Shown: one piece after another, positions 3,025 through 25,922 of the stretch
How the letters are laid out: each line of letters opens with the position of its first letter
How positions within the stretch are numbered: position 1 is the stretch's first letter
Source: Alkalilimnicola ehrlichii MLHE-1
GTDB taxonomy: Bacteria > Pseudomonadota > Gammaproteobacteria > Nitrococcales > Halorhodospiraceae
Direction of reading: 5' to 3'
NCBI RefSeq assembly: GCF_000014785.1
Contig: NC_008340.1
Span: forward strand, 3,090,001-3,122,000
DNA length: 32,000 nt
Notes under the pieces: model-generated
Seen by the model: the letters and a program-made list of their open reading frames with translations, nothing else
Database searches by the model: none
What the model was told of the DNA's origin: nothing
Program-made: the position numbers and the translations under genes

Positions 3025-4545
3025 ATGATCTACGCAAACCCCGGTGAGCGCGACGCGAAAGTCCAGTTCAAACCCCGCTACGGAAACTTCATCAATGGCG
3101 AGTGGGTAGAACCGGCCAGTGGCCAGTATTTTGAGAACATCACCCCGGTAACGGGAGAAGTATTCTGCGAAGTCGCCCGGTCCAATGCCGATGACGTGGA
3201 ACGCGCCCTGGACGCGGCCCACGCCGCCAAAGATGCCTGGGGGAAAGCGTCGGTGACCGAGCGTGCCAACGTGCTGCTGAAGATCGCCGATCGCATGGAG
3301 GCCAACTTGGAGCGCCTGGCGGTGGCCGAGACCTGGGACAACGGGAAGCCCGTGCGTGAAACCCTCAACGCCGATCTCCCGTTGGCCATTGATCACTTCC
3401 GCTACTTCGCCGGGGCCATCCGGGCCCAGGAAGGCGGTATCAGCGAGATCGACCACGACACCATCGCCTACCACTTTCATGAGCCGCTGGGCGTGGTGGG
3501 GCAAATCATCCCCTGGAACTTCCCGCTGCTGATGGCCACCTGGAAGATCGCCCCGGCCCTGGCTTGTGGCAACTGCATCGTGCTCAAGCCCGCCGAGCAG
3601 ACACCGGCGTCCATCCTGGTGTTGATGGAGTGCATCCAGGACGTGCTGCCCCCGGGGGTGCTGAACGTGGTGAACGGCTTCGGTGTCGAGGCCGGCAAGC
3701 CGCTGGCCACCAGCAACCGCATCGCCAAGGTGGCGTTCACCGGCGAGACCACCACCGGGCGGCTGATCATGCAGTACGCCGCCGAGAACATCATCCCGGT
3801 AACCCTGGAGCTGGGCGGCAAATCGCCGAACATCTTCATGGCCGACGTGATGGACCAGGATGACGACTTCCTGGACAAGGCCATTGAGGGGATGACCCTG
3901 GCGTGCCTGAACCAGGGCGAGGTCTGCACCTGTCCCTCGCGCGCGCTGATCCAGGAGGACATCTACGACGATTTCATTGCCAAGGTGATCGACAGGTTCA
4001 GCATGGTGAAACAGGGCAACCCGCTGGACACCGAAACCATGATCGGGGCCCAGGCCTCCTCCGAGCAGATGGAGAAGATCCTGAGCTACATGGACATCGG
4101 TCGGCAGGAAGGCGCCGAGTGCCTCATCGGCGGCGACCGCGCCGAGATCGGCGGTGATTTCCAGAACGGCTACTACGTGCAGCCGACCCTGTTCCGCGGC
4201 CACAACAAGATGCGCATCTTCCAGGAGGAGATCTTCGGCCCGGTGGTTTCCGTCACCACTTTCAAGGACGAGGCCGAGGCGCTGGAGCTGGCCAACGACA
4301 CCCTCTACGGCCTGGGGGCCGGTCTCTGGAGCCGCAGCGCACACACCACCTACCGCATGGGCCGGGCCATCCAGGCCGGCCGGGTGTGGACCAACTGCTA
4401 CCACCTGTACCCGGCCCATGCCGCCTTTGGTGGTTACAAGCAGTCCGGCATCGGGCGGGAGAACCACCAGATGATGCTGGAGCACTACCAGCAGACCAAG
4501 AACCTGCTGGTGAGCTACAGCCCCAAGGCCATGGGCTTTTTCTAA
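3025..4545 (+). CDS. NAD(P)+-dependent aldehyde dehydrogenase (acetaldehyde dehydrogenase, AcoD/ExaC-like, 506 aa)
   Basis: 506 aa with SD GAGGAGA. N-terminus ...[16 protein letters not shown] hallmarks include PWNFPLLM, catalytic-Glu motif ELGGKSP, catalytic-Cys region [11 protein letters not shown] and EEIFGPV. Its length and N-terminus are typical of the 506-aa ethanol/acetoin-associated ALDH group. Confidence 0.93.
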
Positions 4546-7465: not shown

Positions 7466-7481
7466 TGGCATAGCTGTTGCT
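7466..7481 (+). promoter_or_regulatory. Sigma-54 (-24/-12) promoter for the PQQ alcohol dehydrogenase operon
   Basis: TGGCAT-AGCTG-TTGCT is a near-perfect match to TGGCAC-N5-TTGCW. It lies 80 nt upstream of the ATG at 7561. Confidence 0.75.
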
Positions 7482-7560
7482 TGAAGGACGTTGCGGGCTG
7501 GCCACCAAGCCATCCAATTGCCTGGCAACGAAAAAAGAGATGAGAGGAGAAAGGCGAACA

Positions 7561-9369
7561 ATGACTACCGTAAAGCACAACCTGCGCATAGCGCTGATCC
7601 CGGCCACCGTGGCCGCCGTCGCCCTGGGGGCCGGATGCGCCACCGCGGGCAGCCACGGAAACGGGGACTTCCCCGAAAGTATCACCCAGGCGATGATCGA
7701 CGCCGACTTCCACCACAACGACCGCATCCTGACCTACGGCCAATCCCCCGAAGGACAGCGTTACAGCACCCTGGACAAGATCAACCGGGACAATGTGCAC
7801 GCCCTCACCCCGGCCTGGGCCTACTCCTTCGGCGGTGAACAGCAGCGGGGCCAGGAAAGCCAGACCCTGGTGTATGACGGCGTGATCTACGTGACCGGCT
7901 CTTACTCCCGCATGTGGGCGGTGGATGCCCGCACCGGCGAGCGGCTCTGGCAGTACGCCCACCGCCTGCCCGACGGCATCATGCCCTGCTGTGACGTGGT
8001 CAACCGCGGCATGGCCCTCTACGACGACCTGGTCATCTTCGGCACCCTGGATGCGCAACTGGTGGCCTTGGACCGGCACACCGGCCGGGTCCGTTGGCGC
8101 GACCGCATCGCCGACTACCGGGCTGGCTATTCCTACACCGCCGCACCGATGATCGCCAACGATCTGTTGATCACCGGCAACTCCGGAGGCGAGTTTGGCG
8201 CCGTCGGCGAAGTGCAGGCCCGCGACCCGAAGACCGGCGACATCGTCTGGACCCGCCCGGTGGTGGAAGGTCACATGGGCACGCTGCCGGATGGCAGTGA
8301 GACCATGACCGGCGAGCTGAACGCAACCTGGGAGGGTGAGGCCTGGAAGACCGGCGGTGGCGCCCCCTGGCTGGGCGGCACCTATGACCCGGAGCTCAAC
8401 CTGATCTACATCGGCACCGGCAACCCGGCCCCGTGGAACGCCCACGCCCGCCCCGGTGACAACCTCTACACCTCCGCCACCGTGGCCCTGGATGCCGACA
8501 CCGGGGAGATCGTCTGGTACTACCAGACCACCCCCAATGACCACTGGGATTACGACGGCGTCAATGAGCTGGTGCTGTTCGACTACGAGCACAACGGTGA
8601 GACCGTCAAGGCCGGTGCCAAGGCCGACCGCAACGGCTTCTTCTACGTGATGAACCGGGAGAACGGCGAGCTGCTGCTGGCCGAACCCTTCGTGGAGAAC
8701 ATCACCTGGGCCAGCCATATCGACATGGAGACCGGGCGCCCGGTCGAAATCGAGGGCGGCCGCCCGGGCAACCCGGCCGACATGGAGGGCGACCGGGGCG
8801 AGGCCGTGACCGCCCAGCCGGCCTTCCTTGGCGGCAAGAACTGGAGCCACATGTCCTACAGCCAGCGCACGGGCCTGTTCTATATCCCCTCCAACGAGTG
8901 GGAGATGGAGATCTGGAATGAGCCGGTGGACTACCGTCGCGGTGCCGCTTACCTGGGTGCCGGCTTCACCATCAAGCCCATCTACGACGACAAGGTCGGC
9001 GTACTGCGCGCCCTCGACCCGGCCACTGGCGAGATTGTCTGGGAAGTGCCCAACCGCTCGCCGCTCTGGTCCAGCGTGCTCACCACCGCCGGCGGCCTGG
9101 TCTTCTACGGCACCCCCGAGGGCCACCTGAAGGCCATGTGCGATGAGACCGGGGAGGAGCTCTGGAGCTTCCAGACCGGTTCCGGGATCGTCGGCCAACC
9201 GGCCACCTGGGAGATGGACGGCGAACAGTATATCTCCGTGGTCTCCGGCTGGGGCGGCGCGGTGCCGCTCTGGGGCGGGGAGGTGGCCCCGCTGGTCCGC
9301 CATATTAGCCAGGGCGGCATGCTCTGGACCTTCAAGATCTCCGACCTGGCCGCGGAGGCCGGCCTGTAA
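7561..9369 (+). CDS. Periplasmic PQQ-dependent alcohol (ethanol/methanol-family) dehydrogenase, type I quinoprotein, with the lanthanide-type D-x-D signature
   Basis: The track ORF starts at 7477. I prefer the ATG at 7561 (SD GAGAGGAGAAAGG), which gives [31 protein letters not shown] as signal. The vicinal disulfide motif PCCDVVNRG is at C143-C144 (7987-7992). [13 protein letters not shown] aligns with MxaF TPHDEWDYAGVN. Propeller W-motifs occur throughout. Confidence 0.92.
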
Positions 9370-10951: not shown

Positions 10952-11719
10952 ATGAGGGTATCCCCGCACTTGCTACCCCTTTGCTTGCTTCTGGCAGCGG
11001 CGCTGGCGGCTCCGGCCGCCGCTGGCGTCGAGGAGGATCCACTGGGTTCGCCGGGCTGGCACTTGTCCAAGGCCCGCTATTTCCAAGGCGAAACTTATGT
11101 CTTCGCCCACGACAAGGTCCAGGTGATTGCACCGGATAGTGCCGAGGACACCTTCCAGGTCCCCGGTTTCGTCCGCGTCGAGGGGCTGGGCAACGTACGG
11201 CGGCTGATGGTCTTCACCGACCTCAACCCCATCCCGAAGATCCTCGACATGGAGATACCGCGCGGCGCGCCCAATGTGGGCTTCCGGTTCAAAGTCGAGC
11301 AGGCGACGGCCCTGCGGGCCGCGGCACAGACCGAGGACGGCGTCTGGCACCTGGGGGGCACCTGGATCGACGCTGCCGGCGGCGGCTGCAGCGCACCGAG
11401 CATCGCCAGCGCCGATCCAGCCTGGGAGAGCCGGTTGGGCGAAATCCGCGGCCGCACCTGGCAGCGGGAGGGCAGCCAACGGGTGCGCTTCAGCCTCCTG
11501 CACCCCATGGATACCGGGCTTGCCCCTGGAATCCCCGAGTTTTACCTGGAAGAGCTGGAGGTCCGGGACGGCAATGACCAGACGCTGGCCCGCATGGAGA
11601 TCCACGCCTCCATGTCGGAGAACCCCCATCTGACCCTCGACCTGGAGCACCGGGGTACAACACGACTGGTCGGTCGTGATAACAACGGCAACCGCTTCGA
11701 GGGGACCCTGCAGCCATGA
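10952..11719 (+). CDS. Fused SoxY-like/SoxZ-like periplasmic carrier protein with an internal GGGC cysteine motif (quinoprotein-associated)
   Basis: 255 aa with SD GGGAGGA and signal peptide ...AAPAAAG. The N-domain ends in WIDAAGGGCS (Cys146, codon 11387-11389), resembling the SoxY C-terminal GGC carrier motif. The C-domain has SoxZ-like LLHPMDTG and SMSENPHLTL. Cys146 is the only Cys outside the signal peptide. Confidence 0.7.
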   Translation: MRVSPHLLPLCLLLAAALAAPAAAGVEEDPLGSPGWHLSKARYFQGETYVFAHDKVQVIAPDSAEDTFQVPGFVRVEGLGNVRRLMVFTDLNPIPKILDMEIPRGAPNVGFRFKVEQATALRAAAQTEDGVWHLGGTWIDAAGGGCSAPSIASADPAWESRLGEIRGRTWQREGSQRVRFSLLHPMDTGLAPGIPEFYLEELEVRDGNDQTLARMEIHASMSENPHLTLDLEHRGTTRLVGRDNNGNRFEGTLQP

Positions 11720-12693
11720 TGGAATACCCACTGCAAGCGCCTTTCCTTCGGCTGGCGGCGATGGCGCTAGGCCTCCTGACCATTGGAGCTGCCAACGCGG
11801 GGGGAATCTTTTACGGCCTGCAGCCGCAGCAGGTCGCCGATGGGGTGTACATCTTCGAGGGTCGCCAGGAACACTTCACCCGGCGCAATGGCGGCAATAT
11901 CGTCAACACCGGCTTTGTGATCACCAGCGCCGGGGTGGTGGTATTGGACACCGGGCCGTCCCGGGCCTACGGGGAGGAGATGCGCCGCGCGATCGCACAA
12001 GTCACCGATCAACCCATCCACAGTGTCTACCTGACCCACCACCACCCCGATCACTTTCTGGGCAACCAGGCCTTCGAGGATGTCCCCATCTGCGCCCTGC
12101 CCTACACCCGCGAGATGATCGAGCGGGACGGCGAGGCGCTGCTGGACAACATGTATAACCTGCTCAGCGGCTGGATGGGCGGCACCTATGTGGTGGCGCC
12201 GGATTGCACCGCCGAGCCAGGGCCTGTCACCGTAGGCGAACGCACGCTTGAGGTCATCGCCGGCGCCGGGCACAGCGGCCCCGAGGCCTCTGACCTCATG
12301 CTCCACGACCAGCGCAGCGACACCCTGTTCGCCGGCGACCTGGTCTTCTACGACCGGGCGCCCACCACCCCCCATGCGGACCTCTCCCGCTGGGTCGCGC
12401 TGCTCCATGAGTTGGAACGGGAACTGCCCCGAACACTGGTGCCAGGTCACGGCCCCGTCACCCGCGACGTCGAGGCCGTGCTGCAGACCCGTGACTACGT
12501 GGAGTGGCTCGCCTCCGCCCTGCGCGAAGCGGCGGAACAGGGCCTGGACATGGCCGAGGCACTGGAGTTGGAGGTGCCGGAACGCTTCCGCCATCTGGCA
12601 GTGGTGGACGAAGAACTGCGCCGTTCGGTGGCGCACCTGTACCCGGGTTACGAAACCCAAGCATTGAACCAAGTCATTGATGGTCTGCAATAG
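11716..12693 (+). CDS. Periplasmic metallo-beta-lactamase-fold zinc hydrolase (quinoprotein-cluster-associated)
   Basis: 325 aa. ATGA overlap with the upstream stop. Signal-like N-terminus ...LTIGAANAGG. HxHxDH motif THHHPDH (12037-12054). Downstream GAGHSG and LVPGHG are metal-ligand-like His. Confidence 0.8.
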   Translation: MMEYPLQAPFLRLAAMALGLLTIGAANAGGIFYGLQPQQVADGVYIFEGRQEHFTRRNGGNIVNTGFVITSAGVVVLDTGPSRAYGEEMRRAIAQVTDQPIHSVYLTHHHPDHFLGNQAFEDVPICALPYTREMIERDGEALLDNMYNLLSGWMGGTYVVAPDCTAEPGPVTVGERTLEVIAGAGHSGPEASDLMLHDQRSDTLFAGDLVFYDRAPTTPHADLSRWVALLHELERELPRTLVPGHGPVTRDVEAVLQTRDYVEWLASALREAAEQGLDMAEALELEVPERFRHLAVVDEELRRSVAHLYPGYETQALNQVIDGLQ

Positions 12694-13318
12694 CCGCCAC
12701 CATCGCGAGGGCAAGGGGTGGCGCCGCTCAGGCACCGTGCCGGCCCTGGTCGTTTGCGGGCTACTGCTCAGCGGGTTGCTAATCCCGGGTGTGGCCGCGA
12801 CGGTGGACGATGCCGATGACCCCATCTGGCACCACCCGCACATCAACGCCGAGGGTTACCGTTATGCCCGCTACCGCGCCGCGACACCGGACTCTGTGCC
12901 GGAAGGGGAGACGGTGGATACCGGCCGTGCACAAGCCCTCTGGGCCGCCGGGGAGGTCGTGGCCATCGATGTGATGCCGGTCCTCGAACGGAAAGGACCG
13001 GACGGGAAGCCGGAGTGGGTGGTGCTGGAGGAACGCCGGCACATTCCCGGAAGCATCTGGCTACCCAACGTGGGCGCGGGGCGGCTGAGCCCAGAAATGG
13101 AGGCCTGGTTCGCCGATGCCCTGGCGGAGTTGACCGCCGGTGATAGCAACCAGCCGCTCCTCTTCTACTGCATCACGGATTGCTGGATGGCCTGGAACGC
13201 GGTGCGCCGCGCGGCCGCCCTGGGTTACACCTCGCTCTACTGGTACCCGCCGGGGGCGGATGGCTGGCAGCGGGCGGGGCTGCCGACGGAACCTGCCCAA
13301 CCGAAACCACGACACTAA
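12680..13318 (+). CDS. Periplasmic rhodanese-like protein with a C-x3-C-W motif (PQQ-catabolism-associated CXXCW-type family)
   Basis: The track ORF starts with TTG at 12677. The ATG at 12680 overlaps the MBL gene end. Signal peptide ...LLIPGVAATV. Motif LLFYCITDCWMAWNAVRRAA (Cys164/Cys168/Trp169, 13169-13186). The family assignment is from memory of genomic-context families. Confidence 0.6.
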   Translation: MVCNSRHHREGKGWRRSGTVPALVVCGLLLSGLLIPGVAATVDDADDPIWHHPHINAEGYRYARYRAATPDSVPEGETVDTGRAQALWAAGEVVAIDVMPVLERKGPDGKPEWVVLEERRHIPGSIWLPNVGAGRLSPEMEAWFADALAELTAGDSNQPLLFYCITDCWMAWNAVRRAAALGYTSLYWYPPGADGWQRAGLPTEPAQPKPRH

Positions 13319-17203: not shown

Positions 17204-18010
17204 TCAGTCCGCGTTGGGGAAGAACAATCGCTCGCCACGCAGGGTGTAGCGGGCGATGGCGCTCTGCCCGGTCTCGGAGAGCAGCCACTCGTGCCACTGC
17301 CGGGCCCGTTCGTGGTTCAGGTGGGGATGGCGTTCGGCGCTCAGCAGCAGGGTCCCGTACGGGTTGTGCAACGCCTCATCCCCCTGGAACAGGATCTCGA
17401 GACGCTGGCGGTTATCGAAGGCGACCCAGGTGGCGCGGTCCGACAGCACATAGGCATCCATGGCGGCGGCGGTATTGAGGGTGGGCCCCATACCGCCGCC
17501 CAACGCCCGGTACCAGCGCCCGGAGGGCGCGATACCGGCCGCTTGCCACAGCCGCTGCTCCGCCCGGTGGGTACCGCTGTCGTCGCCGCGGGAGGTGAAA
17601 GGCGCGCGGGCCCCGGCGATGCGCTGCAGGGCATCGGCGATGTCGTCGGCATGGCCCACATCCGCAGGGTCGTCTGCCGGGCCGATGAGGACAAAATCGT
17701 TGTACATCACATCGCGCCGCTCGACCGCATAACCGGCCTCGACAAAGGCCCGCTCACCGACAGGGTCGTGGACCAGCAGGCTGTCCACATCACCCCGCCG
17801 GGCAAGGGCGAAGGCCTGGCCGGTGCCCACGGCGATCACCCGCACGTCGATGCCCGTCGCCTCTGAGAATTTCGGGATGATGTGCTGGAACAGGCCGGAC
17901 TGCTCGGTGGAGGTGGTGGAGGCCAGGGTGATGTAATCCCGCGCCTGGGCCGTGCCCGCCAGAGTCAGCGCGGCCAGGCCGATGAGGATCCAACAAACGC
18001 TTCTGATCAT
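17204..18010 (-). CDS. tupA: Tungstate(/molybdate)-type ABC transporter periplasmic binding protein
   Basis: Start trimmed to the ATG at 18010 (MIRSVCWILIGLAALTLAGTAQA). ITLASTTSTEQSGL...VIAVGTGQAFALARRGDVDSLLVHD...RRDVMYNDFVLIGPADDPA matches the remembered TupA pattern (TTTS-type anion motif). Confidence 0.7.
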   Translation of the reverse strand: MIRSVCWILIGLAALTLAGTAQARDYITLASTTSTEQSGLFQHIIPKFSEATGIDVRVIAVGTGQAFALARRGDVDSLLVHDPVGERAFVEAGYAVERRDVMYNDFVLIGPADDPADVGHADDIADALQRIAGARAPFTSRGDDSGTHRAEQRLWQAAGIAPSGRWYRALGGGMGPTLNTAAAMDAYVLSDRATWVAFDNRQRLEILFQGDEALHNPYGTLLLSAERHPHLNHERARQWHEWLLSETGQSAIARYTLRGERLFFPNAD

Positions 18011-18070
18011 CCCCTGCCCTGTCGCCACGCTGCGCCCCTCCAAGCCGGCGCCCGGTCCGACGACCGGGCG

Positions 18071-18850
18071 CTACCAGACCAGCTCGCCCCGGGTGAAGGC
18101 GCGCGCCTCCGGGCTCCGGGGCCGTTCGAAAAAGTCCGCGACCGGCGTACGTTCCAACAGCCGACCGCCACAGATGAAGACCACCTCATCGGCCAGACGC
18201 CGGGCCTGGCCCAAGTCGTGGGTGGTCATCACGATCCGCGTGCCCCGGCGGTCGAACCCCGCCACCGCCTCCTCCACCGCCTTGGTGGCGGCCGGATCGA
18301 GCGCGGCGGTGGGCTCGTCCAGGAACAGCACCTCCGGCTCCAACGCCCAGGCCCGCGCCAGCGCCAGGCGCTGCTGTTCGCCACCGGAGAGCACCCGCGC
18401 CGGCCGCCGCGCCAGCGGCGCCAGCCCGAACCGGGTCAGTGCGGCCATGGCCCGCTCTCGCCGTTGACGCCGGCGGTAGCCCTGCGCCGCGAGGGCAAAG
18501 GTCACGTTGGCCAGTGCCGAGCGGCGCAGCATCACCGGACGCTGGAACACCATGGCCTGCCGGCGGCGCCGCTCCTCGGCCCGGCCTCCCCGGGGGCCGC
18601 GCCAGACCAGCTCCCCCTCGGTGGGCGTCAACAGCCCGTGGCAGATGCGCATCAGCAGGCTCTTGCCGGCCCCATTCGGCCCCATGACGATGGTCTTGCC
18701 GCGCCCGCCGATCCGCAGATCGACCCCCTGGAGCAGGGGCTGCCCCCGGTGGCGAAAGCCGATGCCCTTCAACTCCAGGGGCAGCAGGGCCGACTCGACC
18801 CGCCCGGCGGACTCCGGGCCCGGCCCCGCGTCTGACACTGGCTGCAACAT
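18071..18850 (-). CDS. tupC: ABC transporter ATP-binding protein of the tup system
   Basis: Walker A GPNGAGKS, signature LSGGEQQR, Walker B LFLDEPT. I prefer the ATG at 18850 (GGGAGG SD 7 nt upstream) over the track's GTG at 18856. Confidence 0.75.
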   Translation of the reverse strand: MLQPVSDAGPGPESAGRVESALLPLELKGIGFRHRGQPLLQGVDLRIGGRGKTIVMGPNGAGKSLLMRICHGLLTPTEGELVWRGPRGGRAEERRRRQAMVFQRPVMLRRSALANVTFALAAQGYRRRQRRERAMAALTRFGLAPLARRPARVLSGGEQQRLALARAWALEPEVLFLDEPTAALDPAATKAVEEAVAGFDRRGTRIVMTTHDLGQARRLADEVVFICGGRLLERTPVADFFERPRSPEARAFTRGELVW

Positions 18851-18852
18851 GT

Positions 18853-19551
18853 TCACGCCTCCCGCCGCTTGGCCGCCTCACTCACCAGGAAGGCGACGCC
18901 GTTCACGACCGCCACCAGGGTCAACAGGATGATGCCCAAACCCAGCGCCAGGGCGAGGTTACCCCGGCTGGTCTCCAGGGCGATGGCCGTCGTCATCACC
19001 CGGGTCACGCCGTCGATATTGCCGCCGACGATGAGCACCGCCCCGACCTCCGCGCTGGCCCGACCAAAGCCGGCCAACACCACCGTGATCAGGCTGAAGC
19101 GGGCATCCCACAACAGGGTGGGGATGGCCCGCCCCTTGGTGACCCCCAGCGACCCGAGCTGCTCGCCGTACTCCTGCCACAGGTCCTCAATCACCTGGCG
19201 GGAGAGCGCGGCGATGATGGGCAGCACCAGCACCACCTGGGCGATCACCATGGCGGTGGGGGTGAACAGCAGCCCGAACGGCCCCAACGGCCCGGCGCGG
19301 GAGAGCATCAGGTAGACCGTCAGCCCCGCCACCACCGGTGGCAGCCCCATGAAGGCGTTGAGGACCACCACGATCAGGCCCCGGCCCGGGAACCGCCAAA
19401 GCGCCACCACCGCCCCCAGGGGCAGTGCGATCAAGCTGGCGATCACCACCGCGGTCAGCGAGACCTGCAGGGAGAGGCTGACGATGCCCATCAGGGCCGG
19501 GTCAAGCCCGACGATGAGTTCCCAGGCGGTGGCGAAAGCGTTCGGCTGCAT
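18853..19551 (-). CDS. tupB: ABC transporter permease of the tup system (BPD-type inner-membrane component)
   Basis: Hydrophobic ~232 aa. Start taken as the ATG at 19551 (MQPNAFATAWELIVGLDP...) rather than the GTG at 19593. No clear SD for either start. Directly followed by the ATPase gene. Confidence 0.7.
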   Translation of the reverse strand: MQPNAFATAWELIVGLDPALMGIVSLSLQVSLTAVVIASLIALPLGAVVALWRFPGRGLIVVVLNAFMGLPPVVAGLTVYLMLSRAGPLGPFGLLFTPTAMVIAQVVLVLPIIAALSRQVIEDLWQEYGEQLGSLGVTKGRAIPTLLWDARFSLITVVLAGFGRASAEVGAVLIVGGNIDGVTRVMTTAIALETSRGNLALALGLGIILLTLVAVVNGVAFLVSEAAKRREA

Positions 19552-19732
19552 GACCAGGAAAGATAGTCGGAAAACGGCTGCACTGGGGCACACAGTCTGC
19601 CGACAACCGCTGCATCATGAAATGGAAACAGCCTTACAACGCGAATATGCAGGATAAGGGGCGGCCACCGCCGGCAGCGCGGGCGATGGCCGAAGCCGAG
19701 AGGAGAGGTGGATCAAGGGCGGGCGGGGGCCG

Positions 19733-19933
19733 TCACACCGGACGCTCCTGCTTGAACCCCAGCTTGCGCAGCACCGCCATCGCCGGGCACCAGCCAGAGA
19801 ATGCGGATTGCAGCAGGTTCAGCCCGACGAAGGCGGTGAACAGCAGCCAGGCCTCGTGGTGAGCGTAGGCCAGCACCACGGTGAGCAGCACGAAGAAGCC
19901 GGCGAGCATGCGAAGTCCAGCGTTTACGGTCAT
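19733..19933 (-). CDS. DUF2892 (YgaP-like) small membrane protein
   Basis: 66 aa with two hydrophobic helices. The characteristic LLQSAFSGWCP motif is near the C-terminus. Confidence 0.7.
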   Translation of the reverse strand: MTVNAGLRMLAGFFVLLTVVLAYAHHEAWLLFTAFVGLNLLQSAFSGWCPAMAVLRKLGFKQERPV

Positions 19934-19978
19934 CGGTCATATCTCCCTAATCATCAGTCTCAGGAACGGCGCATCGGT

Positions 19979-21352
19979 TCAGAACCGGAAGCGCACGCGG
20001 GCATAGAGATTGGAATCCCGCTTGAACTGCCCGTAGAACGTATGGCGGTCCTTGCCGCCAAAGAGGTTGCCGCCGAAGGTGTAGGTAACGGCATCCGAGG
20101 CGCGGTAGCGGACGCTCGGACGCAGGTAGTAATCCTCGTCGGCGGGCGAGAGGTAGCTGAACAGCGACCAGATCAGATCGTCGCGCCACATGGAATAGGT
20201 CAGCCGGACGGTGACGACATCCCGGTAGGCCTCCGGCAGGTAGTCCTCGTCGGCCATCCAGCGCGCCTTCAGTTCATCGTGGTCCTGCAGCCGTTCGGCG
20301 TAGTACTGCAGGCCCAGATCGAGGTTGGCGATCAGCTCCCGGGTGTACCCCAGGAGAAACCGCACCTGGGAGTTGGGCACCCACGGTGCTGCCTTGCCGT
20401 CGCGGTTATCCACCGAGTCGTAGTAACCGATCTCGGCATTACCGATACCGCCGGCCACCGGGGCCCGCACACTGGCGCCGTAGGCGTTCAGCCGGGCGTG
20501 GGTGAGACGCGGCTGGTCCGCGGTGCCGATCTGCTCGCTGGGCTGAGGGAAAAAGCCGCGGTAGAGATAACCGGCCAGCTCCACCCCACCGACCCGCCGG
20601 GAGAGGCGGGCGGCCAGCTCGCCATCGTCCGGGAAGTCGTCCGGGGCAGTGGCGGGCAGCGACTCGGCGGTGCGCGCCCCGGTGGCGGGATCGAAGTAGG
20701 ACAGGCGATCGCCGTCGACGAAGCGGTCCGGCTCGAACACCGGGGTCCAGACCACGTCCAGGGTGACGGCGTCGCCGTACCAGGTCCCGCGCAGGGCATC
20801 GGAGGGGGCCTGCAGGTAGTCCTCGTCGCGGCCGGTCAGGAAGGATTCGAAGTCCTTGGGGAACAGATCGTTGACGAAGAGCAGGTCCCCCGTGCCCCAG
20901 GAGAGGATCTGCCGCCCGGCCCGGACATCCAGCCGGTCGCCGACGGGGAAGCTGACCCGGGCCTCGCGCAGCTCACCGCGCAACTCTTCGTCGACGCCGT
21001 CGGCCACCCCGTCGGCACGCACCCGGAAGCGGTAACGGCGCCAGTCGCCGCGCATGTCCAACTGCAGGCGGGCCTCGGCCAGGTTGTAGTCCTTGTCGGT
21101 GACCCGGTTGTTGCGGATGTGATGCCCCCCGGCGGCCTCGAAAAAGCCTTCGAGGTCGAAGGGCAGCCCGCTCTCCTCCTCCCAAGGGTCGTCCTCCCAG
21201 GGGTCATCGTCCCAGGACTCCTCCCCCCAGGCGTCGTCCTCCCACAGGTCGTCGCCCTGGGCGAGCGCCACCGGCGACCCCACGCCGAGCAGGACCGACA
21301 GCGCAACCGCGGCGATGGGCGCCGCCGCCCTGACCGTCTGATGGCCCGGCAT
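19979..21352 (-). CDS. Uncharacterised outer-membrane beta-barrel protein (DUF1302/alginate-export-like) with an acidic Trp-repeat N-terminus
   Basis: Start taken as the ATG at 21352 (SD GGGAGGTGA). Signal peptide ...SPVALAQG. GRQILSWGTGD motif, alternating strand pattern, C-terminal ...YARVRFRF. The family name is tentative. Confidence 0.6.
   Translation of the reverse strand: MPGHQTVRAAAPIAAVALSVLLGVGSPVALAQGDDLWEDDAWGEESWDDDPWEDDPWEEESGLPFDLEGFFEAAGGHHIRNNRVTDKDYNLAEARLQLDMRGDWRRYRFRVRADGVADGVDEELRGELREARVSFPVGDRLDVRAGRQILSWGTGDLLFVNDLFPKDFESFLTGRDEDYLQAPSDALRGTWYGDAVTLDVVWTPVFEPDRFVDGDRLSYFDPATGARTAESLPATAPDDFPDDGELAARLSRRVGGVELAGYLYRGFFPQPSEQIGTADQPRLTHARLNAYGASVRAPVAGGIGNAEIGYYDSVDNRDGKAAPWVPNSQVRFLLGYTRELIANLDLGLQYYAERLQDHDELKARWMADEDYLPEAYRDVVTVRLTYSMWRDDLIWSLFSYLSPADEDYYLRPSVRYRASDAVTYTFGGNLFGGKDRHTFYGQFKRDSNLYARVRFRF
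21167..21253 (-). repeat. Five in-frame pentapeptide repeats x-W-[DEG]-[DE]-[DE] (15-nt periodic DNA repeat) at the mature N-terminus of the beta-barrel protein
   Basis: The protein reads DD-LWEDD-AWGEE-SWDDD-PWEDD-PWEEE-SG, with Trp at residues 37, 42, 47, 52 and 57. The + strand shows periodic CCA(G/A)GG...GTCGTC units. Confidence 0.85.
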
Positions 21353-21357
21353 GGCGA

Positions 21358-22212
21358 TCACCTCCCGCGCAACCAGTCCCGCGGCGGATTACGCAGGCTG
21401 CGCTCGCTGAACACCGCGGCCGGGATCCCCAGATCGTATTCCACGCCCCGGAACTGCACCAGGGTGTGCCCGCCGCTCTCCAGGTCGTCCACCCGCATGC
21501 GCATGGCGGTGGGATAACCATCCACCTCCCGGATGTCGGTGCTGGCGATACGCCGGTACACCTCGCCATCCTGATCCTCGTACTCGATCCGCACCGGCAG
21601 GTCGGTGGCCCGGTCGATCCAGGTGGTGTAGGCGGCGAACTCCACCGAGCCGGGGTCCCGGGGAGTGGAACGCAGCACGTAGTACTCGTCGGTGACCTCC
21701 TGCAGGGTGTGCTCGTCGTCCTCGAGATGCCGCCCGGAGACATCCTCGTAGAAGACGTGCGAGCCGACGAAGCTGGTGCGCTTGTCGCCGGGTGCGATGC
21801 GCCGCACCAGGTCCATGTCCGGCAGATAGAGCCAGCGATCGTCATCGGCCCCCGGGTGCTTTTCCACCAGGAAGACCACGTTGCGGTACTCTGAGGGCCG
21901 GCTGAAGACCACCAGGTAGTGCTGCTCACCCCCCGCCTCCACGTCGCGGCGCAGGATGGTGAACTGGCGGGTCTGCTCCCGGCCCCGGCCATCGACAATG
22001 AGCATGCGGGCCTCGGTACGGCCGTCATTGCCGGCGTAGTAAGAGGCGTTGTTGGCCCGCTCCACGATCTCGGCGGCGGTGGGCGGCTCGTCGGCGTGGC
22101 CGGCGAGCGGCAGCGCAAAGAGGGCCAGGGCCAGCGCGGCGGCGCGCAGCCGTCCCACCACCGGGGCCAACCGGGGCCGGCGCAGGCAGTGAACAGGAAC
22201 AATGTGGCTCAT
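21358..22212 (-). CDS. LolA-like periplasmic 'outer membrane lipoprotein-sorting' family protein
   Basis: The track ORF (525 aa) runs into the RND gene. Trimmed to the ATG at 22212 (SD GGGAGG), giving MSHIVPV... with signal ...ALFALPLAGHA. AEIVERANNASYYAGNDGRTEARMLIVD...QFTILRRD...RWLYLPDMDLVRRI is typical of LolA-like (DUF1329-related) proteins. Confidence 0.65.
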   Translation of the reverse strand: MSHIVPVHCLRRPRLAPVVGRLRAAALALALFALPLAGHADEPPTAAEIVERANNASYYAGNDGRTEARMLIVDGRGREQTRQFTILRRDVEAGGEQHYLVVFSRPSEYRNVVFLVEKHPGADDDRWLYLPDMDLVRRIAPGDKRTSFVGSHVFYEDVSGRHLEDDEHTLQEVTDEYYVLRSTPRDPGSVEFAAYTTWIDRATDLPVRIEYEDQDGEVYRRIASTDIREVDGYPTAMRMRVDDLESGGHTLVQFRGVEYDLGIPAAVFSERSLRNPPRDWLRGR

Positions 22213-22235
22213 AACGGGACCTCCCATAGCGAGTG

Positions 22236-24818
22236 TCAGGCCCCCCGCCCCGTGGCGCGCGGAAAGAGCACGGGGTGGGCGTAGGCGATCAGGGCCGGTA
22301 GGGCGAACAGGGTGACCACCGCAGAGGCGGCCATGATGCTGGCCAGGAAGATACCCACCGTGACGTAGGGCATCAGCGGCGCGGCCAGCAACGGCAGGAA
22401 GCCGACGGCGATGACCACGGCGTTGCGGGTGATGGCGCAGGCGGGCTCCTGGAAGACCCGGTCCAACGCCAGGCGCCAATCGCCCACCTCGTCCAGGGCC
22501 ATGCGGCAGCGCTGGATGAAGTGGATGGCGAAGTCCACCGACAACCCGATGGACAGCGAGGACAGCACCGCCACGGGCATGTCGTAATCCTTGCCGACCA
22601 ACCCCATGACGCCGTAGATGGCGGCGATGGTGACCGTGAGCGGCAGCATCGCCAGCGCCCCCACGGTGATGGAGCGGAACAGGCCGATCATCATCAGGAG
22701 CACGACGACGAAGGCGGAGAGCAGGGCGAGGAGCATGCCGGCCACCATCTCCCCCTGCCAGACCAGGTTGATATAGGTGGCGCCGGCCCAGTCCCACTCC
22801 ACCCCCTCGGGCGGCGGATTGTCCGCGATAAAGGCATCCACGGCCTCCAGCACCCGCCCCATGTCCTGGTTGTCGCCGCTGGGGAGCTGCAGCCAGATAT
22901 TGGCCTCGGTGAAATCCGGGGTCACGAAACGCCAAAGATCGTGCGGGCGGTGCGAGCTCTGGAAGCTCAGCAGCGCCTGCGAGACGCCACCGGCGCTCGC
23001 CGGCAGCCGGTAGTCCTCCGGCTCACCGCTGACCAGCTCACGGTTGATGGTCTTCACCAGGTCCGCCAACGAACCGGCCTTGCCGATGTGGCCGCCGGCC
23101 TCCAGGTGGGCCTGCAACGCCGCCATCCAGGCCAGATGCCCGGGCTTCTGGAAGGCGCGGCTGTCCGTTCGGGCCGCCTCCACGAGGTCGAGCAGCCGCT
23201 CCCAATGGACCGCCTCGTCCAGGTCCACCGTGAACAGCAGGTCGTCGATCTCCACCGCCAGGCGCTCCAACCGGTCCCCCAGCGGGGCCTCGCCCCGGTG
23301 GGCCGCCCACAGCGCCTGCCAGCGGTCGCTGATGCCGAAGCCCTCGGCCTCCGCCTCATCGACAATCGCCTCAGCGCGGGTGCGCAGCTCGCTCTCCAGT
23401 GCGTCCTGGCCGGTCTGGCGAAGGCGCAGGTAGGCCTCGTAGGTGCCGGAGAAACGCTCGTTGAGCACGCTATCGGCGATCCGGATGTCGTGGCTGGACT
23501 TGAACCAGCGGGTGGGGTTGTCATTGATCTGGATCTGAGAGATGCCGTAGACGGCCACCACCACCAGCACCGCCAAGCCCCCGAGGACGAATCCACGGTG
23601 GCGGACGGCCTGGCGACCACCGGCCTGCAGCACGTGGCACAGCCTGGCGGTGCTGCCCGCCTCGCCATCCTGGGCCGTGCGCGTGGACATCCTGTCCAGG
23701 GCACGGCGCGGCAGCGCGGCGGTGTAGGCCGGGATGAAGGTCAGGGTCAAGACCAGCGCCACCAGCACCCCGAAGGAGATGAAACCGCCGAATACCTGCA
23801 CCGGCGGGATGGGGGTGAACAGCAGCGAGGCGAAGCCGACGCCGGTGGTCAGGGCGGTGAACAGCACGGGCTTGAACAGCCGGTCCATGACCCCGCGCAT
23901 CACCGCCCGCGGGTCGTCACCGGGCCGGTAGCGGTCGGCGAAGTTGGAGAGCACGTGGACCGAGGCGACCACCGCAATCGGCATCAGGAAGATCGGGATC
24001 ATGGAGCTCATGATGTGCACGGTGAAGCCCGTGCCGATCAGCAGCCCCATGGTGGAGATCACCGTGGCCATGGCCAGCAGCATGGGGGCCACCACCATGG
24101 GCACGCTGCGGAAGAAGTAGAGCATCACCAGGAAGATGATCAGCCCCGCCAGCGGCGCGGAAATGGCCATCTGCTGGAACATCTCCACACCGAAGGTATC
24201 CTGCGCCACCGGCTGCCCGGTGATATGGAAGGCGTCATCCACCCCCAGCCCGTCGATCACGGCGCGGATCTCCTGAGCGATCCGGTGGCTCTGGTCCTTG
24301 CTTTCCACCGGCACGAAGATCGCCGCCGCCGTGCCGTCTTCCGAGGCGAGCGTGCCCTGATACATGGGCAACCGGGCCACTGCGGTGCGGATGCGCTCCG
24401 CCTCTGCCGGGGTGGCCGGCGGCGCGGGGATCAGCCAATCGTAGTCGATGGTGCCGGGAGCGGCCTGCTCCACATTGTCCACCGCCGCCATGGAGAGCAG
24501 ATCACGGCTCACCACCCCGTCGATCTGCTCGATGGCGCGGGTCAGGTGGTAGTGGGCGGCCAGCGACTCGGGGTTGAAGACGCCGTCGGCGTGGACGTCG
24601 TTCACCTGGCCGACGACGATCATGTCGTGGAGGTTGAACTGGGTCTGGACCTGATTGTGGAGCACCCGGTCCGGCTGGTCCGCCGGCAGCATGTTCTCGG
24701 GATCGGTGTCGATCTGGATGCGCGGAATCATTGCACCCAGGACCACCACCATCAGCACCATGGCGGCGAAGATCCACCGGCGGTGGTCCATACACCAGTC
24801 CGTCAGCCGTGCACCCAT
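22236..24818 (-). CDS. RND-superfamily transporter, MMPL/HpnN-like (no adaptor or TolC partner adjacent)
   Basis: 860 aa with SD GGGAGGAT. Two blocks of ~6 TM helices separated by large soluble loops. N-terminus ...IQIDTDPENMLP and repeated SxDFAIHF-type motifs (LSVDFAIHF). Confidence 0.8.
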   Translation of the reverse strand: MGARLTDWCMDHRRWIFAAMVLMVVVLGAMIPRIQIDTDPENMLPADQPDRVLHNQVQTQFNLHDMIVVGQVNDVHADGVFNPESLAAHYHLTRAIEQIDGVVSRDLLSMAAVDNVEQAAPGTIDYDWLIPAPPATPAEAERIRTAVARLPMYQGTLASEDGTAAAIFVPVESKDQSHRIAQEIRAVIDGLGVDDAFHITGQPVAQDTFGVEMFQQMAISAPLAGLIIFLVMLYFFRSVPMVVAPMLLAMATVISTMGLLIGTGFTVHIMSSMIPIFLMPIAVVASVHVLSNFADRYRPGDDPRAVMRGVMDRLFKPVLFTALTTGVGFASLLFTPIPPVQVFGGFISFGVLVALVLTLTFIPAYTAALPRRALDRMSTRTAQDGEAGSTARLCHVLQAGGRQAVRHRGFVLGGLAVLVVVAVYGISQIQINDNPTRWFKSSHDIRIADSVLNERFSGTYEAYLRLRQTGQDALESELRTRAEAIVDEAEAEGFGISDRWQALWAAHRGEAPLGDRLERLAVEIDDLLFTVDLDEAVHWERLLDLVEAARTDSRAFQKPGHLAWMAALQAHLEAGGHIGKAGSLADLVKTINRELVSGEPEDYRLPASAGGVSQALLSFQSSHRPHDLWRFVTPDFTEANIWLQLPSGDNQDMGRVLEAVDAFIADNPPPEGVEWDWAGATYINLVWQGEMVAGMLLALLSAFVVVLLMMIGLFRSITVGALAMLPLTVTIAAIYGVMGLVGKDYDMPVAVLSSLSIGLSVDFAIHFIQRCRMALDEVGDWRLALDRVFQEPACAITRNAVVIAVGFLPLLAAPLMPYVTVGIFLASIMAASAVVTLFALPALIAYAHPVLFPRATGRGA

Positions 24819-25019
24819 TCAGATCCTCCCATTGCTTTCGCTTGCCGACGGCCCAAAGCGGGCGCGAGTGACATCCGCACAGGCAGAGTCCTGCCAGGCG
24901 CCCGGAATTTATATCACGTTTCTCTAATATATAATAGGGATCGCCCCCCTGCCACACCGACAACGCCGCCTCAGCACGCTATCATCGGGCCTGTCCACGC
25001 CGGCATAGTGACGACCGAC

Positions 25020-25922
25020 ATGACCTCCAACGGCCTGCCTACCCACCCGCGCTATCTGACCACCGATGAGGTGGCGGCGTACCTCCGCCTCAAACCGCGC
25101 AAGGTTTACGACCTGGTCCGCCAGGGGCTCATCCCCAGCACCAAGGTGACCGGGAAACTGCTGTTCCCGCGCGAGGTCATCGACCTGTGGATCATGAACC
25201 ACCTGGAAGGGGATCAACGCAGCACCCGGCCGGCGCCACCGGTGCTGGCCGGCAGCCAGGATCCGCTGCTGGATTGGGCCCTGCGCGAGTCCCGCACCGG
25301 CCTGGCCACCCTCTGCCGGGGCAGCGCCGATGGGGTACGGCGCCTGTTAGAAGGCGAAGCGATGGCGGCCGGCATGCACATCCTCGATCCGGAGAGCGGC
25401 GACTACAATGTACCGGCCCGCCTGGGCCTGGGCGGTATGCGCGATCTGGTGATCATTCGCTGGGCACGCCGCCGTCAGGGGTTACTGCTGGCCCCGGGTA
25501 ACCCCAAGGGTATCCATGCGCTCGCCGATCTGATCCGGCCGGGGCTGCGCATCGCCCACCGGCAATCGGAGGCCGGCGCCGATACCCTATTCCGGTGGCT
25601 GCTGGACCAGGCCGGTATCGACCGCGCCCGGCTGAATCTCACCCAGCACCCGGCCCTGTCCGAGGATGATCTGGCGCTGTCGGTGCGCCAGGGGGAGGCC
25701 GACACCGGCGTGGCGGTGGAGGCCGCGGCCCGACGGCACGGCCTGGATTTCCTCCCGCTGCACTGGGAGTGCTTCGACCTGGCCATGCGCCGACGCAGCT
25801 ACTTTGAACCGCCGGTTCAGGCATTGGTGCGCTTCGCGGGCGACCCGCGGCTGCAGGCCCATGCAGACGAGATGCAGGGCTACGACCTGAGCGACCTCGG
25901 CCGTGTCGTTTTCAATGCCTGA
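25020..25922 (+). CDS. Transcriptional regulator: excisionase/MerR-type HTH fused to a periplasmic-binding-protein-like (oxyanion-binding-like) domain, TunR-like architecture
   Basis: Only the last ~300 codons of the 1133-aa track ORF are credible. MTSNGLPTHPRYLTTDEVAAYLRLKPRKVYDLVRQGLIPSTKVTGKLLFPREVIDLWI is an HTH_17-type domain. The remainder resembles PBP_like domains fused to Mo/W-related regulators. Confidence 0.6.
   Translation: MTSNGLPTHPRYLTTDEVAAYLRLKPRKVYDLVRQGLIPSTKVTGKLLFPREVIDLWIMNHLEGDQRSTRPAPPVLAGSQDPLLDWALRESRTGLATLCRGSADGVRRLLEGEAMAAGMHILDPESGDYNVPARLGLGGMRDLVIIRWARRRQGLLLAPGNPKGIHALADLIRPGLRIAHRQSEAGADTLFRWLLDQAGIDRARLNLTQHPALSEDDLALSVRQGEADTGVAVEAAARRHGLDFLPLHWECFDLAMRRRSYFEPPVQALVRFAGDPRLQAHADEMQGYDLSDLGRVVFNA

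What the first reader, a model, noticed from the sequence alone, without database searches (positions are those of the whole stretch)
21167..21253. Strictly periodic acidic tryptophan pentad repeat (LWEDD-AWGEE-SWDDD-PWEDD-PWEEE) at the mature N-terminus of the barrel protein
Directly after the predicted signal cleavage (ALAQG), five Trp residues occur at exactly 5-residue spacing. Each is followed by 2-3 Asp/Glu, giving about 17 acidic residues in 27 (hand count). The DNA shows the matching 15-nt periodicity. I do not recognise this as a named motif. It could be a cation-binding tail for Ca2+ or Ln3+, which is notable given the Ln-type ADH nearby. It could also be a docking peptide for the LolA-like partner, or a periplasmic plug. 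The repeat number may vary between strains.
Basis: seen in the sequence. Interest (0 to 1): 0.5.

Follow-up and report, generated by a model that had tools for sequence, protein, structure and literature searches.

The report
Acidic tryptophan tail on outer-membrane barrel
The repeat is real: it is a floppy, very acidic, tryptophan-studded tail at the start of an outer-membrane pore protein, conserved with variable copy number across the close relatives sampled, and it most likely acts as a fishing line for the periplasmic lipid-carrier protein encoded next to it (not tested).

Summary
On the minus strand, residues 36-65 of the 460-aa ORF 19979..21361 read GDD-LWEDD-AWGEE-SWDDD-PWEDD-PWEEE-SG. 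They follow a Sec-type signal peptide ending ALA. There are 16 acidic residues in 27, no K/R, and a 15-nt DNA period.

The protein is a DUF1302-like outer-membrane beta-barrel from Alkalilimnicola ehrlichii MLHE-1. It is the last gene of an operon: HAE3/MMPL RND pump, then a LolA-like periplasmic protein, then the barrel.

AlphaFold2 models the barrel confidently and leaves the tail disordered.

The tail is typical of its clade. Of 216 close relatives, 203 carry at least 2 acidic Trp motifs, and the commonest W-W spacing is 5. Copy number ranges from 0 to 5, and a relative in the same 90%-identity cluster has 4. More distant clades carry other acidic extensions at the same position.

MlaA lipoproteins of Marinomonas and relatives carry (DSWGDE)n tails. 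This is the position where E. coli MlaA uses an acidic flexible tail to recruit the lipid carrier MlaC.

The best reading is therefore a multivalent bait for the LolA-like carrier. This is inferred, not shown. Metal binding, plug and filler readings are weaker. I rate it a new variant of a known kind, of moderate interest.

The parts
21167..21256 (-). Acidic tryptophan pentad tail at the mature N-terminus of the barrel (G36-G65: GDD LWEDD AWGEE SWDDD PWEDD PWEEE SG). Predicted disordered and periplasmic.
   Evidence: Translation. TRF period 15, 5.1 copies. pLDDT below 50 for residues 25-49 and about 60 for 51-60 of the 457-aa model. Conserved in 203 of 216 relatives.
21260..21361 (-). Signal peptide of the barrel protein (GTG start at 21361, or ATG at 21352 as annotated by NCBI). 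Cleavage is inferred after ALA (A34).
   Evidence: Sequence. AF2 helix 11-23 covers the hydrophobic region. Homologues show AxA followed directly by the acidic tail. The NCBI protein starts MPGHQ.
19979..21166 (-). Short linker (LPFDLE) plus the DUF1302-like outer-membrane beta-barrel domain, including the stop codon.
   Evidence: AF2 mean pLDDT 88.4, above 90 from about residue 63. Foldseek best TM-score about 0.52-0.53, to AlgE. Pfam DUF1302 scores 21.3 bits, below its cut-off of 23.2. NCBI names it 'DUF1302 family protein'.
21358..22227 (-). LolA-like (PF17131, TP_0789-like) periplasmic protein with a signal peptide and no lipobox Cys. Its stop overlaps the barrel's GTG start (GTGA). Proposed binding partner of the tail.
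   Evidence: Pfam E 2e-52. PDB relatives 9TP6, 4Z48 and 3BK5. Start region. Found directly upstream of the barrel in 68 of 68 loci with enough flank.
22236..24818 (-). HAE3/MMPL-type RND inner-membrane transporter, first gene of the operon.
   Evidence: Pfam MMPL E 3e-33, NCBIfam TIGR00921 (HAE3) E 2.9e-52 but 177.7 bits, below that model's curated cut-off of 351.9, so it is a related RND pump rather than a scored HAE3 member. Found upstream of LolA-like in 55 loci.
24926..24955 (-). Sigma-70-like promoter match upstream of the RND gene. A candidate operon promoter by consensus match only.

Best explanation
The pentad repeat is the intrinsically disordered, strongly acidic, Trp-studded N-terminal extension of a DUF1302-like outer-membrane beta-barrel. 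It hangs into the periplasm. The barrel is the outer-membrane end of a three-gene envelope system (HAE3 RND pump, soluble LolA-like carrier, barrel) that presumably moves a hydrophobic or amphiphilic molecule.

Shown here: the repeat exists, it sits at the mature N-terminus, it is predicted disordered, the W-acidic composition is conserved while copy number drifts, and the synteny with the LolA-like and RND genes is invariant.

Inferred: each (D/E)(D/E)(P)W(G/A/D/E)(D/E)(D/E) unit is a short linear docking motif, and the array works as a multivalent 'fishing line'. It would capture the LolA-like carrier (or the pump-carrier complex) and hold it at the periplasmic mouth of the barrel for cargo hand-over. 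The acidic residues would steer and the Trp side chains would provide the hydrophobic contacts. This is the same logic as the acidic flexible C-terminal tail of E. coli MlaA, which recruits the lipid carrier MlaC.
For: - The repeat and its position are confirmed.
- AF2: the barrel has pLDDT above 90, while tail residues 25-49 are below 50. The tail is therefore flexible and not packed against the barrel.
- Conservation: 203 of 216 relatives have at least 2 acidic Trp. W-W spacing is 5 in 205 of 325 intervals. Among the 120 first hits, P is enriched at -1, G/D/A at +1 and D/E at +2/+3, and the last W lies 11-14 residues before the first strand in 106 of the 116 that have an acidic Trp.
- Composition and motif are kept while copy number changes, even inside one 90%-identity cluster (5 versus 4). 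This is typical of functional disordered motif arrays.
- Synteny: the LolA-like gene is directly upstream in 68 of 68 informative loci, and the RND gene is upstream in 55. The stop and start codons overlap in the window.
- The acidic W...W pattern occurs in no other ORF of the family loci.
- Other clades carry different extensions at the same place (EPALPxGL repeats...SFLETLPFELH). These are also acidic with interspersed hydrophobic residues, and 95% are net negative.
- Independent recurrence: 92 of 120 MlaA homologues around Marinomonas/Maribrevibacterium carry 2-7 DSWGDE-type repeats in their C-terminal tail, and more distant ones carry acidic F/Y tails.
- Experimental precedent: the E. coli MlaA tail, through D243/D244/D247/E251 and I241/L245/I248, is flexible, binds MlaC on its own (KD about 57 uM) and is required for recruitment (10.1101/2022.06.08.495403; PMC10245069).
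- W-acidic motifs in disordered tails are established docking motifs elsewhere: kinesin light chain (PMC5450233) and WalK-WalR (PMC9087282).
- AF-Multimer complexes of DUF1302 barrels with LolA-superfamily partners have been reported (PMC13499233, PMC10866462).
Against: - No binding was tested or modelled.
- The LolA-like partners in the W-acidic clade are themselves net acidic (mean -6.8, against +2.5 in clades without acidic Trp). There is therefore no global charge complementarity.
- The one strongly basic conserved element of the partner, its C-terminal ERSLRNPPRxWLxR, is equally conserved where the Trp tail is absent.
- Four of the 120 first hits, and about half of the broader metagenome sample, have no acidic Trp. 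The system therefore works without this particular motif.
- Part of the acidity could be halophile adaptation.
- Acidic-Trp repeats also occur in many unrelated proteins and non-coding repeats.
Confidence: 0.42

Rival explanations
1. Cation-binding tail. The clustered carboxylates chelate Ca2+, Mg2+ or lanthanides in the periplasm, storing or delivering them or stabilising the outer membrane. The Trp residues would be incidental or act as packing elements.
For: There are 16 D/E in 27 residues and no K/R. The host is a haloalkaliphile, and soda lakes are poor in free divalent cations (general knowledge). A PQQ alcohol dehydrogenase with the Ln-type WDYDG signature and a TonB-dependent receptor lie in the same window.
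Against: - There is no EF-hand, lanmodulin or RTX-type loop pattern in the tail (sequence).
- The ADH is 12 kb away, behind SoxYZ, a sigma-54 regulator, a sugar dehydrogenase and an ABC transporter.
- The Thioalkalivibrio locus has the tail but no PQQ enzyme nearby. The one locus with a PQQ neighbour lacks the tail.
- What is conserved is Trp plus acidic residues at fixed spacing, with Pro at -1. Chelation alone does not explain that.
- The invariant partner is the LolA-like/RND pair, not any metal-related gene.
Confidence: 0.13
2. Auto-inhibitory plug or gate. The acidic tail folds back into the barrel lumen from the periplasmic side and is displaced when the loaded carrier arrives.
For: The N-terminus of a barrel is periplasmic and lies next to the pore mouth. 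N-terminal plugs exist in FadL and TonB-dependent receptors (general knowledge). The barrel has many conserved Arg residues.
Against: AF2 with 88 sequences leaves the tail at pLDDT 40-49 with no secondary structure, while the barrel is above 90. Inward-facing strand residues inferred from the model are charge-balanced (20 R/K against 19 D/E), so the pore is not electropositive. Copy number from 0 to 5 is hard to reconcile with a fitted plug.
Confidence: 0.08
3. Non-specific low-complexity extension. It could be an entropic spacer, a solubility tag that keeps the unfolded barrel from aggregating during periplasmic transit, or halophile-type acidic filler that expands and contracts by slippage. 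No dedicated partner is involved.
For: Copy number changes quickly. The whole clade is marine or halophilic, and its periplasmic partner is also acidic. Similar repeats occur in many unrelated proteins, including cytoplasmic ones such as the Obg C-terminus. Other clades use quite different sequences at this position.
Against: Trp is the rarest residue, yet it is kept at 2-5 copies in 94% of 216 relatives, with preferred spacing 5, Pro at -1 and a fixed distance to strand 1. No other ORF in the family loci shows the pattern. The same motif type sits exactly on the MlaA tail, which is known to be a functional binding element.
Confidence: 0.22
4. Docking onto a different periplasmic machine, for example the TolB beta-propeller or a TPR protein. 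Colicin E9 does this with a disordered Trp/acidic/Gly-rich TolB-binding epitope.
For: The only support is a resemblance recalled from memory. The ColE9 TolB box (...DGSGWSSENNPWGG...) looks like ...GDDPWGEE.... Canonical DUF1302/DUF1329 clusters include a beta-propeller (BNR/Ycf48-like) protein.
Against: Nothing was tested here. This three-gene variant has no propeller or TPR gene.
Confidence: 0.07

Closest known systems
DUF1302 (PF06980) outer-membrane barrels of the DUF1302-DUF1329-BNR-RND (AmeABCD / PP_0765-0766) systems
   Same: A predicted outer-membrane beta-barrel with an AlgE-like fold, encoded with a LolA-superfamily periplasmic protein and an HAE3-type RND pump. NCBI already names the protein 'DUF1302 family protein'. 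The function of the family is still unknown.
   Different: At 457 aa the window protein is about 150 aa shorter than AmeA (605 aa) and scores below the Pfam cut-off. Its partner is the about 240-aa PF17131 (TP_0789-like) protein, not the about 450-aa DUF1329. There is no BNR/Ycf48-like gene. An acidic-Trp tail has not been described for the family in any of the papers read.
Acidic flexible C-terminal tail of MlaA that recruits the periplasmic lipid carrier MlaC (E. coli)
   Same: A terminal, flexible, acidic segment with essential hydrophobic residues. It sits on an outer-membrane lipid-transport protein, faces the periplasm and recruits a soluble lipid carrier. In Marinomonas-type MlaA this tail consists of acidic-Trp repeats of the same kind as here.
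   Different: It is a different protein family (PF04333 lipoprotein against a beta-barrel). The tail is C-terminal rather than N-terminal. The E. coli tail becomes a short helix on an NTF2-like carrier, whereas the partner here would be LolA-like. Binding is unproven for the barrel tail and also for the Marinomonas MlaA tails.
W-acidic short linear motifs (kinesin light-chain TPR ligands; WalK C-terminal tail)
   Same: Trp flanked by Asp/Glu inside a disordered region, acting as a protein-docking motif, often in more than one copy.
   Different: Those cases are eukaryotic cytoplasmic or Gram-positive cytoplasmic, with unrelated partners. Only the physico-chemical logic is shared.
AlgE alginate export barrel
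   Same: The closest solved fold by TM-score (about 0.52-0.53). Like the barrel here, it is an outer-membrane export barrel.
   Different: 11-13% sequence identity. AlgE has an electropositive pore for a polyanion and a TPR lipoprotein partner (general knowledge). It has no acidic-Trp tail, and the lumen inferred here is charge-balanced.

Membership tests
DUF1302 (Pfam PF06980) | Match to the family HMM at or above the gathering score | tested here: not met
   21.3 bits against a cut-off of 23.2, covering only profile positions 148-406 of 541. Some homologues do carry a precomputed PF06980 hit. The protein is a distant or short relative rather than a scored member.
DUF1302 (Pfam PF06980) | Large outer-membrane beta-barrel with an AlgE-like fold | tested here: met
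   AF2 gives a barrel with pLDDT above 90. Foldseek TM-score is about 0.52-0.53 to AlgE, the same closest solved fold reported for DUF1302.
DUF1302 (Pfam PF06980) | Encoded with a LolA-superfamily protein and an HAE3 RND pump | tested here: met
   The partner is PF17131 rather than DUF1329, the BNR protein is absent, and the pump's TIGR00921 (HAE3) score of 177.7 bits is below that model's cut-off of 351.9.
MlaA-type carrier-recruiting tail (works-like comparison) | Flexible acidic terminal segment with hydrophobic residues on the periplasmic side of an outer-membrane lipid-transport protein | tested here: met
   for the barrel. for MlaA.
MlaA-type carrier-recruiting tail (works-like comparison) | Direct binding of the tail to the soluble carrier | not testable with these tools
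It needs AF-Multimer or biochemistry.
MlaA lipoprotein family (PF04333) | Match to the MlaA HMM | tested here: not met
   The barrel has no MlaA hit. The similarity is confined to the tail type.
EF-hand / lanmodulin-type metal-binding loops | A 12-residue DxDxDG-type loop (with Pro at position 2 in lanmodulin) | tested here: not met
   No such pattern in GDDLWEDDAWGEESWDDDPWEDDPWEEESG (read directly). No Pfam metal-binding domain.
Kinesin-light-chain W-acidic motif | [LM]-[DE]-W-[DE] ligand of a KLC TPR domain | tested here: not met
   The pentads read (L/A/S/P)-W-(E/G/D)-(D/E)-(D/E), and the protein is a bacterial periplasmic one with no KLC. Only the general motif logic is shared.

The most novel reading that the evidence does not exclude
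Acidic-tryptophan repeats are a general periplasmic 'docking code' in marine and halophilic Gammaproteobacteria. Unrelated outer-membrane lipid-transport proteins (DUF1302-like barrels at the N-terminus, MlaA at the C-terminus) have independently acquired multivalent W-acidic tails. These tails would capture their soluble lipid carriers (LolA-like, MlaC). The Trp side chains would probe or occupy the carrier's hydrophobic cavity, selecting the empty or loaded state or triggering cargo hand-over.
Probability: 0.2. Interest if true: 0.7.

Novelty: new variant of a known kind. Interest (0 to 1): 0.42.

Why it matters
The DUF1302/LolA-like/HAE3 systems are widespread, give phenotypes in fitness screens and are induced on hydrophobic substrates in some bacteria. 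It is not known how cargo crosses the periplasm or how the soluble carrier finds the outer-membrane barrel.

A conserved, disordered, multivalent tail at the barrel's periplasmic end is a concrete and easily testable candidate for that missing link. Peptide binding, tail deletion and W-to-A changes would all address it.

MlaA proteins of the same bacterial groups carry the same kind of repeat on the very tail that recruits MlaC in E. coli. This suggests a shared solution for carrier capture at the outer membrane. If confirmed, it would also give a simple sequence signature for finding such hand-over sites in uncharacterised envelope systems.

Tried and rejected
- A phmmer search with the 30-aa tail alone against 1.8 billion representatives found nothing.
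It therefore gives no frequency. It did show that the pattern is not family-specific: it appears in actinobacterial C-terminal WDDDD tails, archaeal EEEW mini-ORFs, an Obg C-terminus and non-coding tandem repeats.
- Charge complementarity with the LolA-like partner was tested and not found. The partners in the W-acidic clade are net acidic.
- An electropositive pore that could hold an acidic plug was tested indirectly and not found.
- I looked for the Thalassolituus TOL_3188 'porin', which is induced on n-C28 next to an MMPL+LolA-like protein (PMC6304351). A search seeded with an Oceanospirillaceae member did not surface it, so the link to alkane growth remains an unverified lead.
- NCBIfam gave no family for the barrel.
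- The long + strand ORF 19808..21517 opposite the gene is a high-GC artefact (GC 67%).
Full report
OBSERVATION

The finding lies on the minus strand. ORF 19979..21361(-) encodes a 460-aa protein (457 aa from the ATG that NCBI uses). Its N-terminus reads VIAMPGHQTVRAAAPIAAVALSVLLGVGSPVALA|QGDD-LWEDD-AWGEE-SWDDD-PWEDD-PWEEE-SGLPFDLEGFF.

Five Trp residues sit at exactly five-residue spacing. The 30-aa tail has no Lys or Arg. Tandem Repeats Finder reports a 15-nt period over 21177-21253, with 5.1 copies and 75% matches.

The repeat follows a typical Sec signal peptide: a basic residue, a hydrophobic stretch and an A-L-A site. Homologues start their acidic tail 0-3 residues after an AxA-type site. 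The repeat is therefore at the mature N-terminus, not in the leader.

A relaxed acidic W...W pattern occurs nowhere else in the six-frame translation of the window. In 82 loci of the family it occurs in no ORF other than the barrel (31 matches against 0).

GENE AND OPERON

The protein is identical to the 'DUF1302 family protein' of Alkalilimnicola ehrlichii MLHE-1. Pfam DUF1302 matches weakly, at 21.3 bits against a cut-off of 23.2. NCBIfam gives nothing.

Two genes lie upstream on the same strand:
- A LolA-like PF17131 protein (21358..22227, E 2e-52). It has a signal peptide and no lipobox cysteine, and its stop overlaps the barrel's GTG start.
- An HAE3/MMPL-type RND pump (22236..24818). Its NCBIfam HAE3 match (177.7 bits) is far below that model's cut-off of 351.9.

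A promoter-like site lies upstream of the pump.

The order pump, LolA-like, barrel is conserved in Thioalkalivibrio and in a metagenome contig. Among the 80 metagenome loci plus those two, every locus with enough upstream sequence has the LolA-like gene directly upstream (68 of 68). Fifty-five also show the pump.

This is a compact relative of the four-gene DUF1302-DUF1329-BNR-RND clusters:
- AmeABCD of Castellaniella (PMC6394551).
- The cofit genes in RB-TnSeq screens (10.1101/072470; 10.1101/2020.07.04.188060).

The biochemical function of these clusters is still unknown. No solved structure exists for them (PMC13499233).

STRUCTURE

AlphaFold2 with 88 homologues gives a confident barrel: mean pLDDT 88.4, and above 90 from about residue 63. 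It leaves residues 25-49 below 50 with no secondary structure.

Foldseek finds only generic porins. The best TM-score, about 0.52-0.53, is to AlgE, as reported for DUF1302.

Both termini of such barrels face the periplasm (established knowledge). The tail is therefore a flexible periplasmic appendage of up to about 10 nm (inference).

The five-residue period fits neither an amphipathic helix nor a strand. This argues for an array of separate short motifs rather than one folded element (inference).

CONSERVATION

Among the 120 best homologues, 116 have at least one acidic Trp and 113 have at least two. The counts in that sample are:
- The tails average 25 residues, with 9.4 D/E and 0.4 K/R.
- Around Trp, Asp dominates -2, -3 and -1 (Pro is second at -1), Gly/Asp/Ala +1, and Asp/Glu +2/+3.
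- The last Trp lies 11-14 residues before the invariant GF of strand 1 in 106 of the 116.

With a second sample, 216 sequences in all:
- 203 have at least two acidic Trp.
- The commonest spacing is five (205 of 325 intervals).
- The window protein is the only one with five Trp in strict register, so it is the extreme of a continuum.

A member of the same 90%-identity cluster reads LWEDD-AWEDE-AWGDD-PWEEE, which is four pentads. Twelve Halorhodospira sequences are nearly constant.

BEYOND THE CLADE

In the broader metagenome sample, 40 of 83 barrels have no acidic Trp. Some of these have almost no extension. Others have EP(A/S)LPxGL repeats or a ...SFLETLPFELH segment at the same position.

Ninety-five per cent of these extensions are still net negative and contain hydrophobic residues. 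Mean net charge is -4.0, against -9.5 for the Trp type.

The common denominator is an acidic, hydrophobic-studded, often repetitive periplasmic extension. The Trp pentad is the version used by a clade of marine, halophilic and alkaliphilic Gammaproteobacteria. Genera seen include Alkalilimnicola, Halorhodospira, Thioalkalivibrio, Marinospirillum, Marinobacterium, Amphritea, Neptuniibacter and Halomonas, plus Woeseiaceae MAGs.

THE MOTIF ELSEWHERE

It shows that such repeats are not unique. They occur as C-terminal WDDDD tails in Actinobacteria, EEEW mini-ORFs in archaea, an Obg C-terminus, secreted Firmicute proteins and non-coding tandem repeats.

The scan's hits included only a handful from Gammaproteobacteria. 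One of these is this barrel family (Amphritea). Two are MlaA lipoproteins whose C-terminal tail is made of acidic-Trp repeats (Pfam PF04333).

A follow-up search showed this is systematic. Ninety-two of 120 MlaA homologues around Marinomonas/Maribrevibacterium carry 2-7 DSWGDE-type units after the conserved YLQxR helix. More distant MlaA proteins (Halomonas, Ketobacter) carry acidic Phe/Tyr tails.

MECHANISM

In E. coli the equivalent MlaA tail (G227-E251) is invisible in crystal structures. It is acidic, needs both its acidic residues (D243/D244/D247/E251) and its hydrophobic residues (I241/L245/I248), and binds MlaC on its own with a KD of about 57 uM. The authors describe it as a bait that recruits the carrier to the outer-membrane complex (10.1101/2022.06.08.495403; PMC10245069).

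Disordered W-acidic motifs are docking motifs in other systems too (PMC5450233, PMC9087282). AF-Multimer places LolA-superfamily partners on DUF1302 barrels.

I therefore propose that the pentad array is a multivalent bait. It would capture the LolA-like carrier, or the pump-carrier complex, and concentrate it at the barrel mouth. This is an inference from anatomy, conservation, synteny and analogy. No binding was tested.

Evidence against the bait model:
- The partners in this clade are net acidic (-6.8 against +2.5 elsewhere).
- Their one conserved basic element, the C-terminal ERSLRNPPRxWLxR, is also present where the Trp tail is absent.

RIVAL EXPLANATIONS

Metal binding:
- The tail is very acidic, and the window does contain a PQQ alcohol dehydrogenase with the Ln-type WDYDG signature. 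Its best PDB hits are 6ZCW and 6ZCV.
- That gene is 12 kb away, behind unrelated operons, and is not syntenic elsewhere.
- The tail has no known metal-loop pattern.
- Chelation does not explain the conserved Trp, Pro and spacing.

Plug:
- AF2 does not dock the tail.
- The inward-facing residues inferred from the strand pattern are charge-balanced, 20 R/K against 19 D/E.
- Variable copy number is awkward for a fitted plug.

Filler, solubility tag or halophile adaptation:
- This explains the drift and the acidity.
- It does not explain retention of the rarest amino acid at preferred spacing in 94% of 216 relatives.
- It does not explain the parallel with the functional MlaA tail.

Another partner such as TolB rests only on a remembered resemblance to the colicin E9 TolB box.

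NOVELTY AND INTEREST

The protein family and the operon type are known but uncharacterised. The tail was not described in any paper I found or read.

It looks like a new variant of a known kind of element, the acidic flexible carrier-recruiting tail of an outer-membrane lipid-transport protein. The added observation is that the same W-acidic repeat type recurs on MlaA in the same bacterial groups.

Interest is moderate. The hypothesis is cheap to test and bears on how periplasmic lipid carriers find their outer-membrane stations. The mechanism remains unproven, and acidic-Trp repeats are a common low-complexity sequence type.

Noticed in passing
L032:4854-5639(+), L024:7585-7998(-); proteins P0135-P0254: MlaA/VacJ lipoproteins of Marinomonas, Maribrevibacterium, Bacterioplanes and relatives end in 2-7 acidic-Trp repeats (DSWGDE type). 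Ninety-two of 120 homologues have at least 2. More distant MlaA proteins have acidic Phe/Tyr tails. This is the tail that recruits MlaC in E. coli.
   Followed up: partly
L142, L153, L155, L170, L187, L188 (barrel N-termini): A different clade of the same barrel family carries tandem EP(A/S)LPxGL repeats at the position where the window protein has W-acidic pentads. Another clade has a conserved ...K(S/P)FLE(T/M)LPFELH segment.
   Followed up: partly
L040, L072, L076, L107 (also L005, L028, L029, L037, L100): Bathyarchaeia and Thermoprotei MAGs contain tiny ORFs of about 25-50 codons made almost entirely of EEEW repeats, for example ...FEEEEEWEEEDWEEEEWEEEEW followed by a stop. They recur in near-identical form in several genomes. 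Whether they are genes is unknown.
   Followed up: no
L023, L035, L038, L047, L105, L106: Several actinobacterial proteins end in WDDDD-type acidic-Trp C-terminal tails after Pro/Ala-rich linkers.
   Followed up: no
window 7477-9369(+), 5108-7174(+), 3025-4545(+): A PQQ ethanol-dehydrogenase-type enzyme with the WDYDG (lanthanide-type) signature, whose best PDB hits are 6ZCW and 6ZCV. Next to it lie a TonB-dependent receptor and an aldehyde dehydrogenase.
   Followed up: partly
window 17204-19593(-) and 25020-25919(+): A TupA/ModA-like binding protein (PBP_like_2), an ABC ATPase and a permease lie downstream of the barrel. An HTH_17+PBP_like regulator lies divergent from the RND gene. The three-gene envelope operon sits between what looks like an oxyanion (tungstate/molybdate-type) ABC transporter and a regulator of the type usually paired with it.
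   Followed up: no
window 10952-11719(+), 11716-12693(+), 12677-13318(+): A fused SoxY-SoxZ protein, followed by a metallo-beta-lactamase-fold protein and a rhodanese. This is sulfur-oxidation context, consistent with the host.
   Followed up: no
LolA-like proteins of window and L001-L202 (C-termini): The PF17131 partner has a nearly invariant basic C-terminal motif F(S/T)ER(S/Y)LR(N/R)PPRxW(L/I)x(R/K) in all clades. It has 28 R+K among its last 25 columns across clades... in practice 4-6 basic residues per sequence. It is a candidate interaction element whose partner is unknown.
   Followed up: no
PMC6304351 (Thalassolituus oleivorans TOL_3187/TOL_3188): An MMPL protein reported to contain a LolA-like domain, and an adjacent domain-less 'porin', are induced 42-fold or exclusively on n-C28 alkane. 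This may be the same kind of system with pump and carrier fused. Homology to the window operon could not be verified here.
   Followed up: partly
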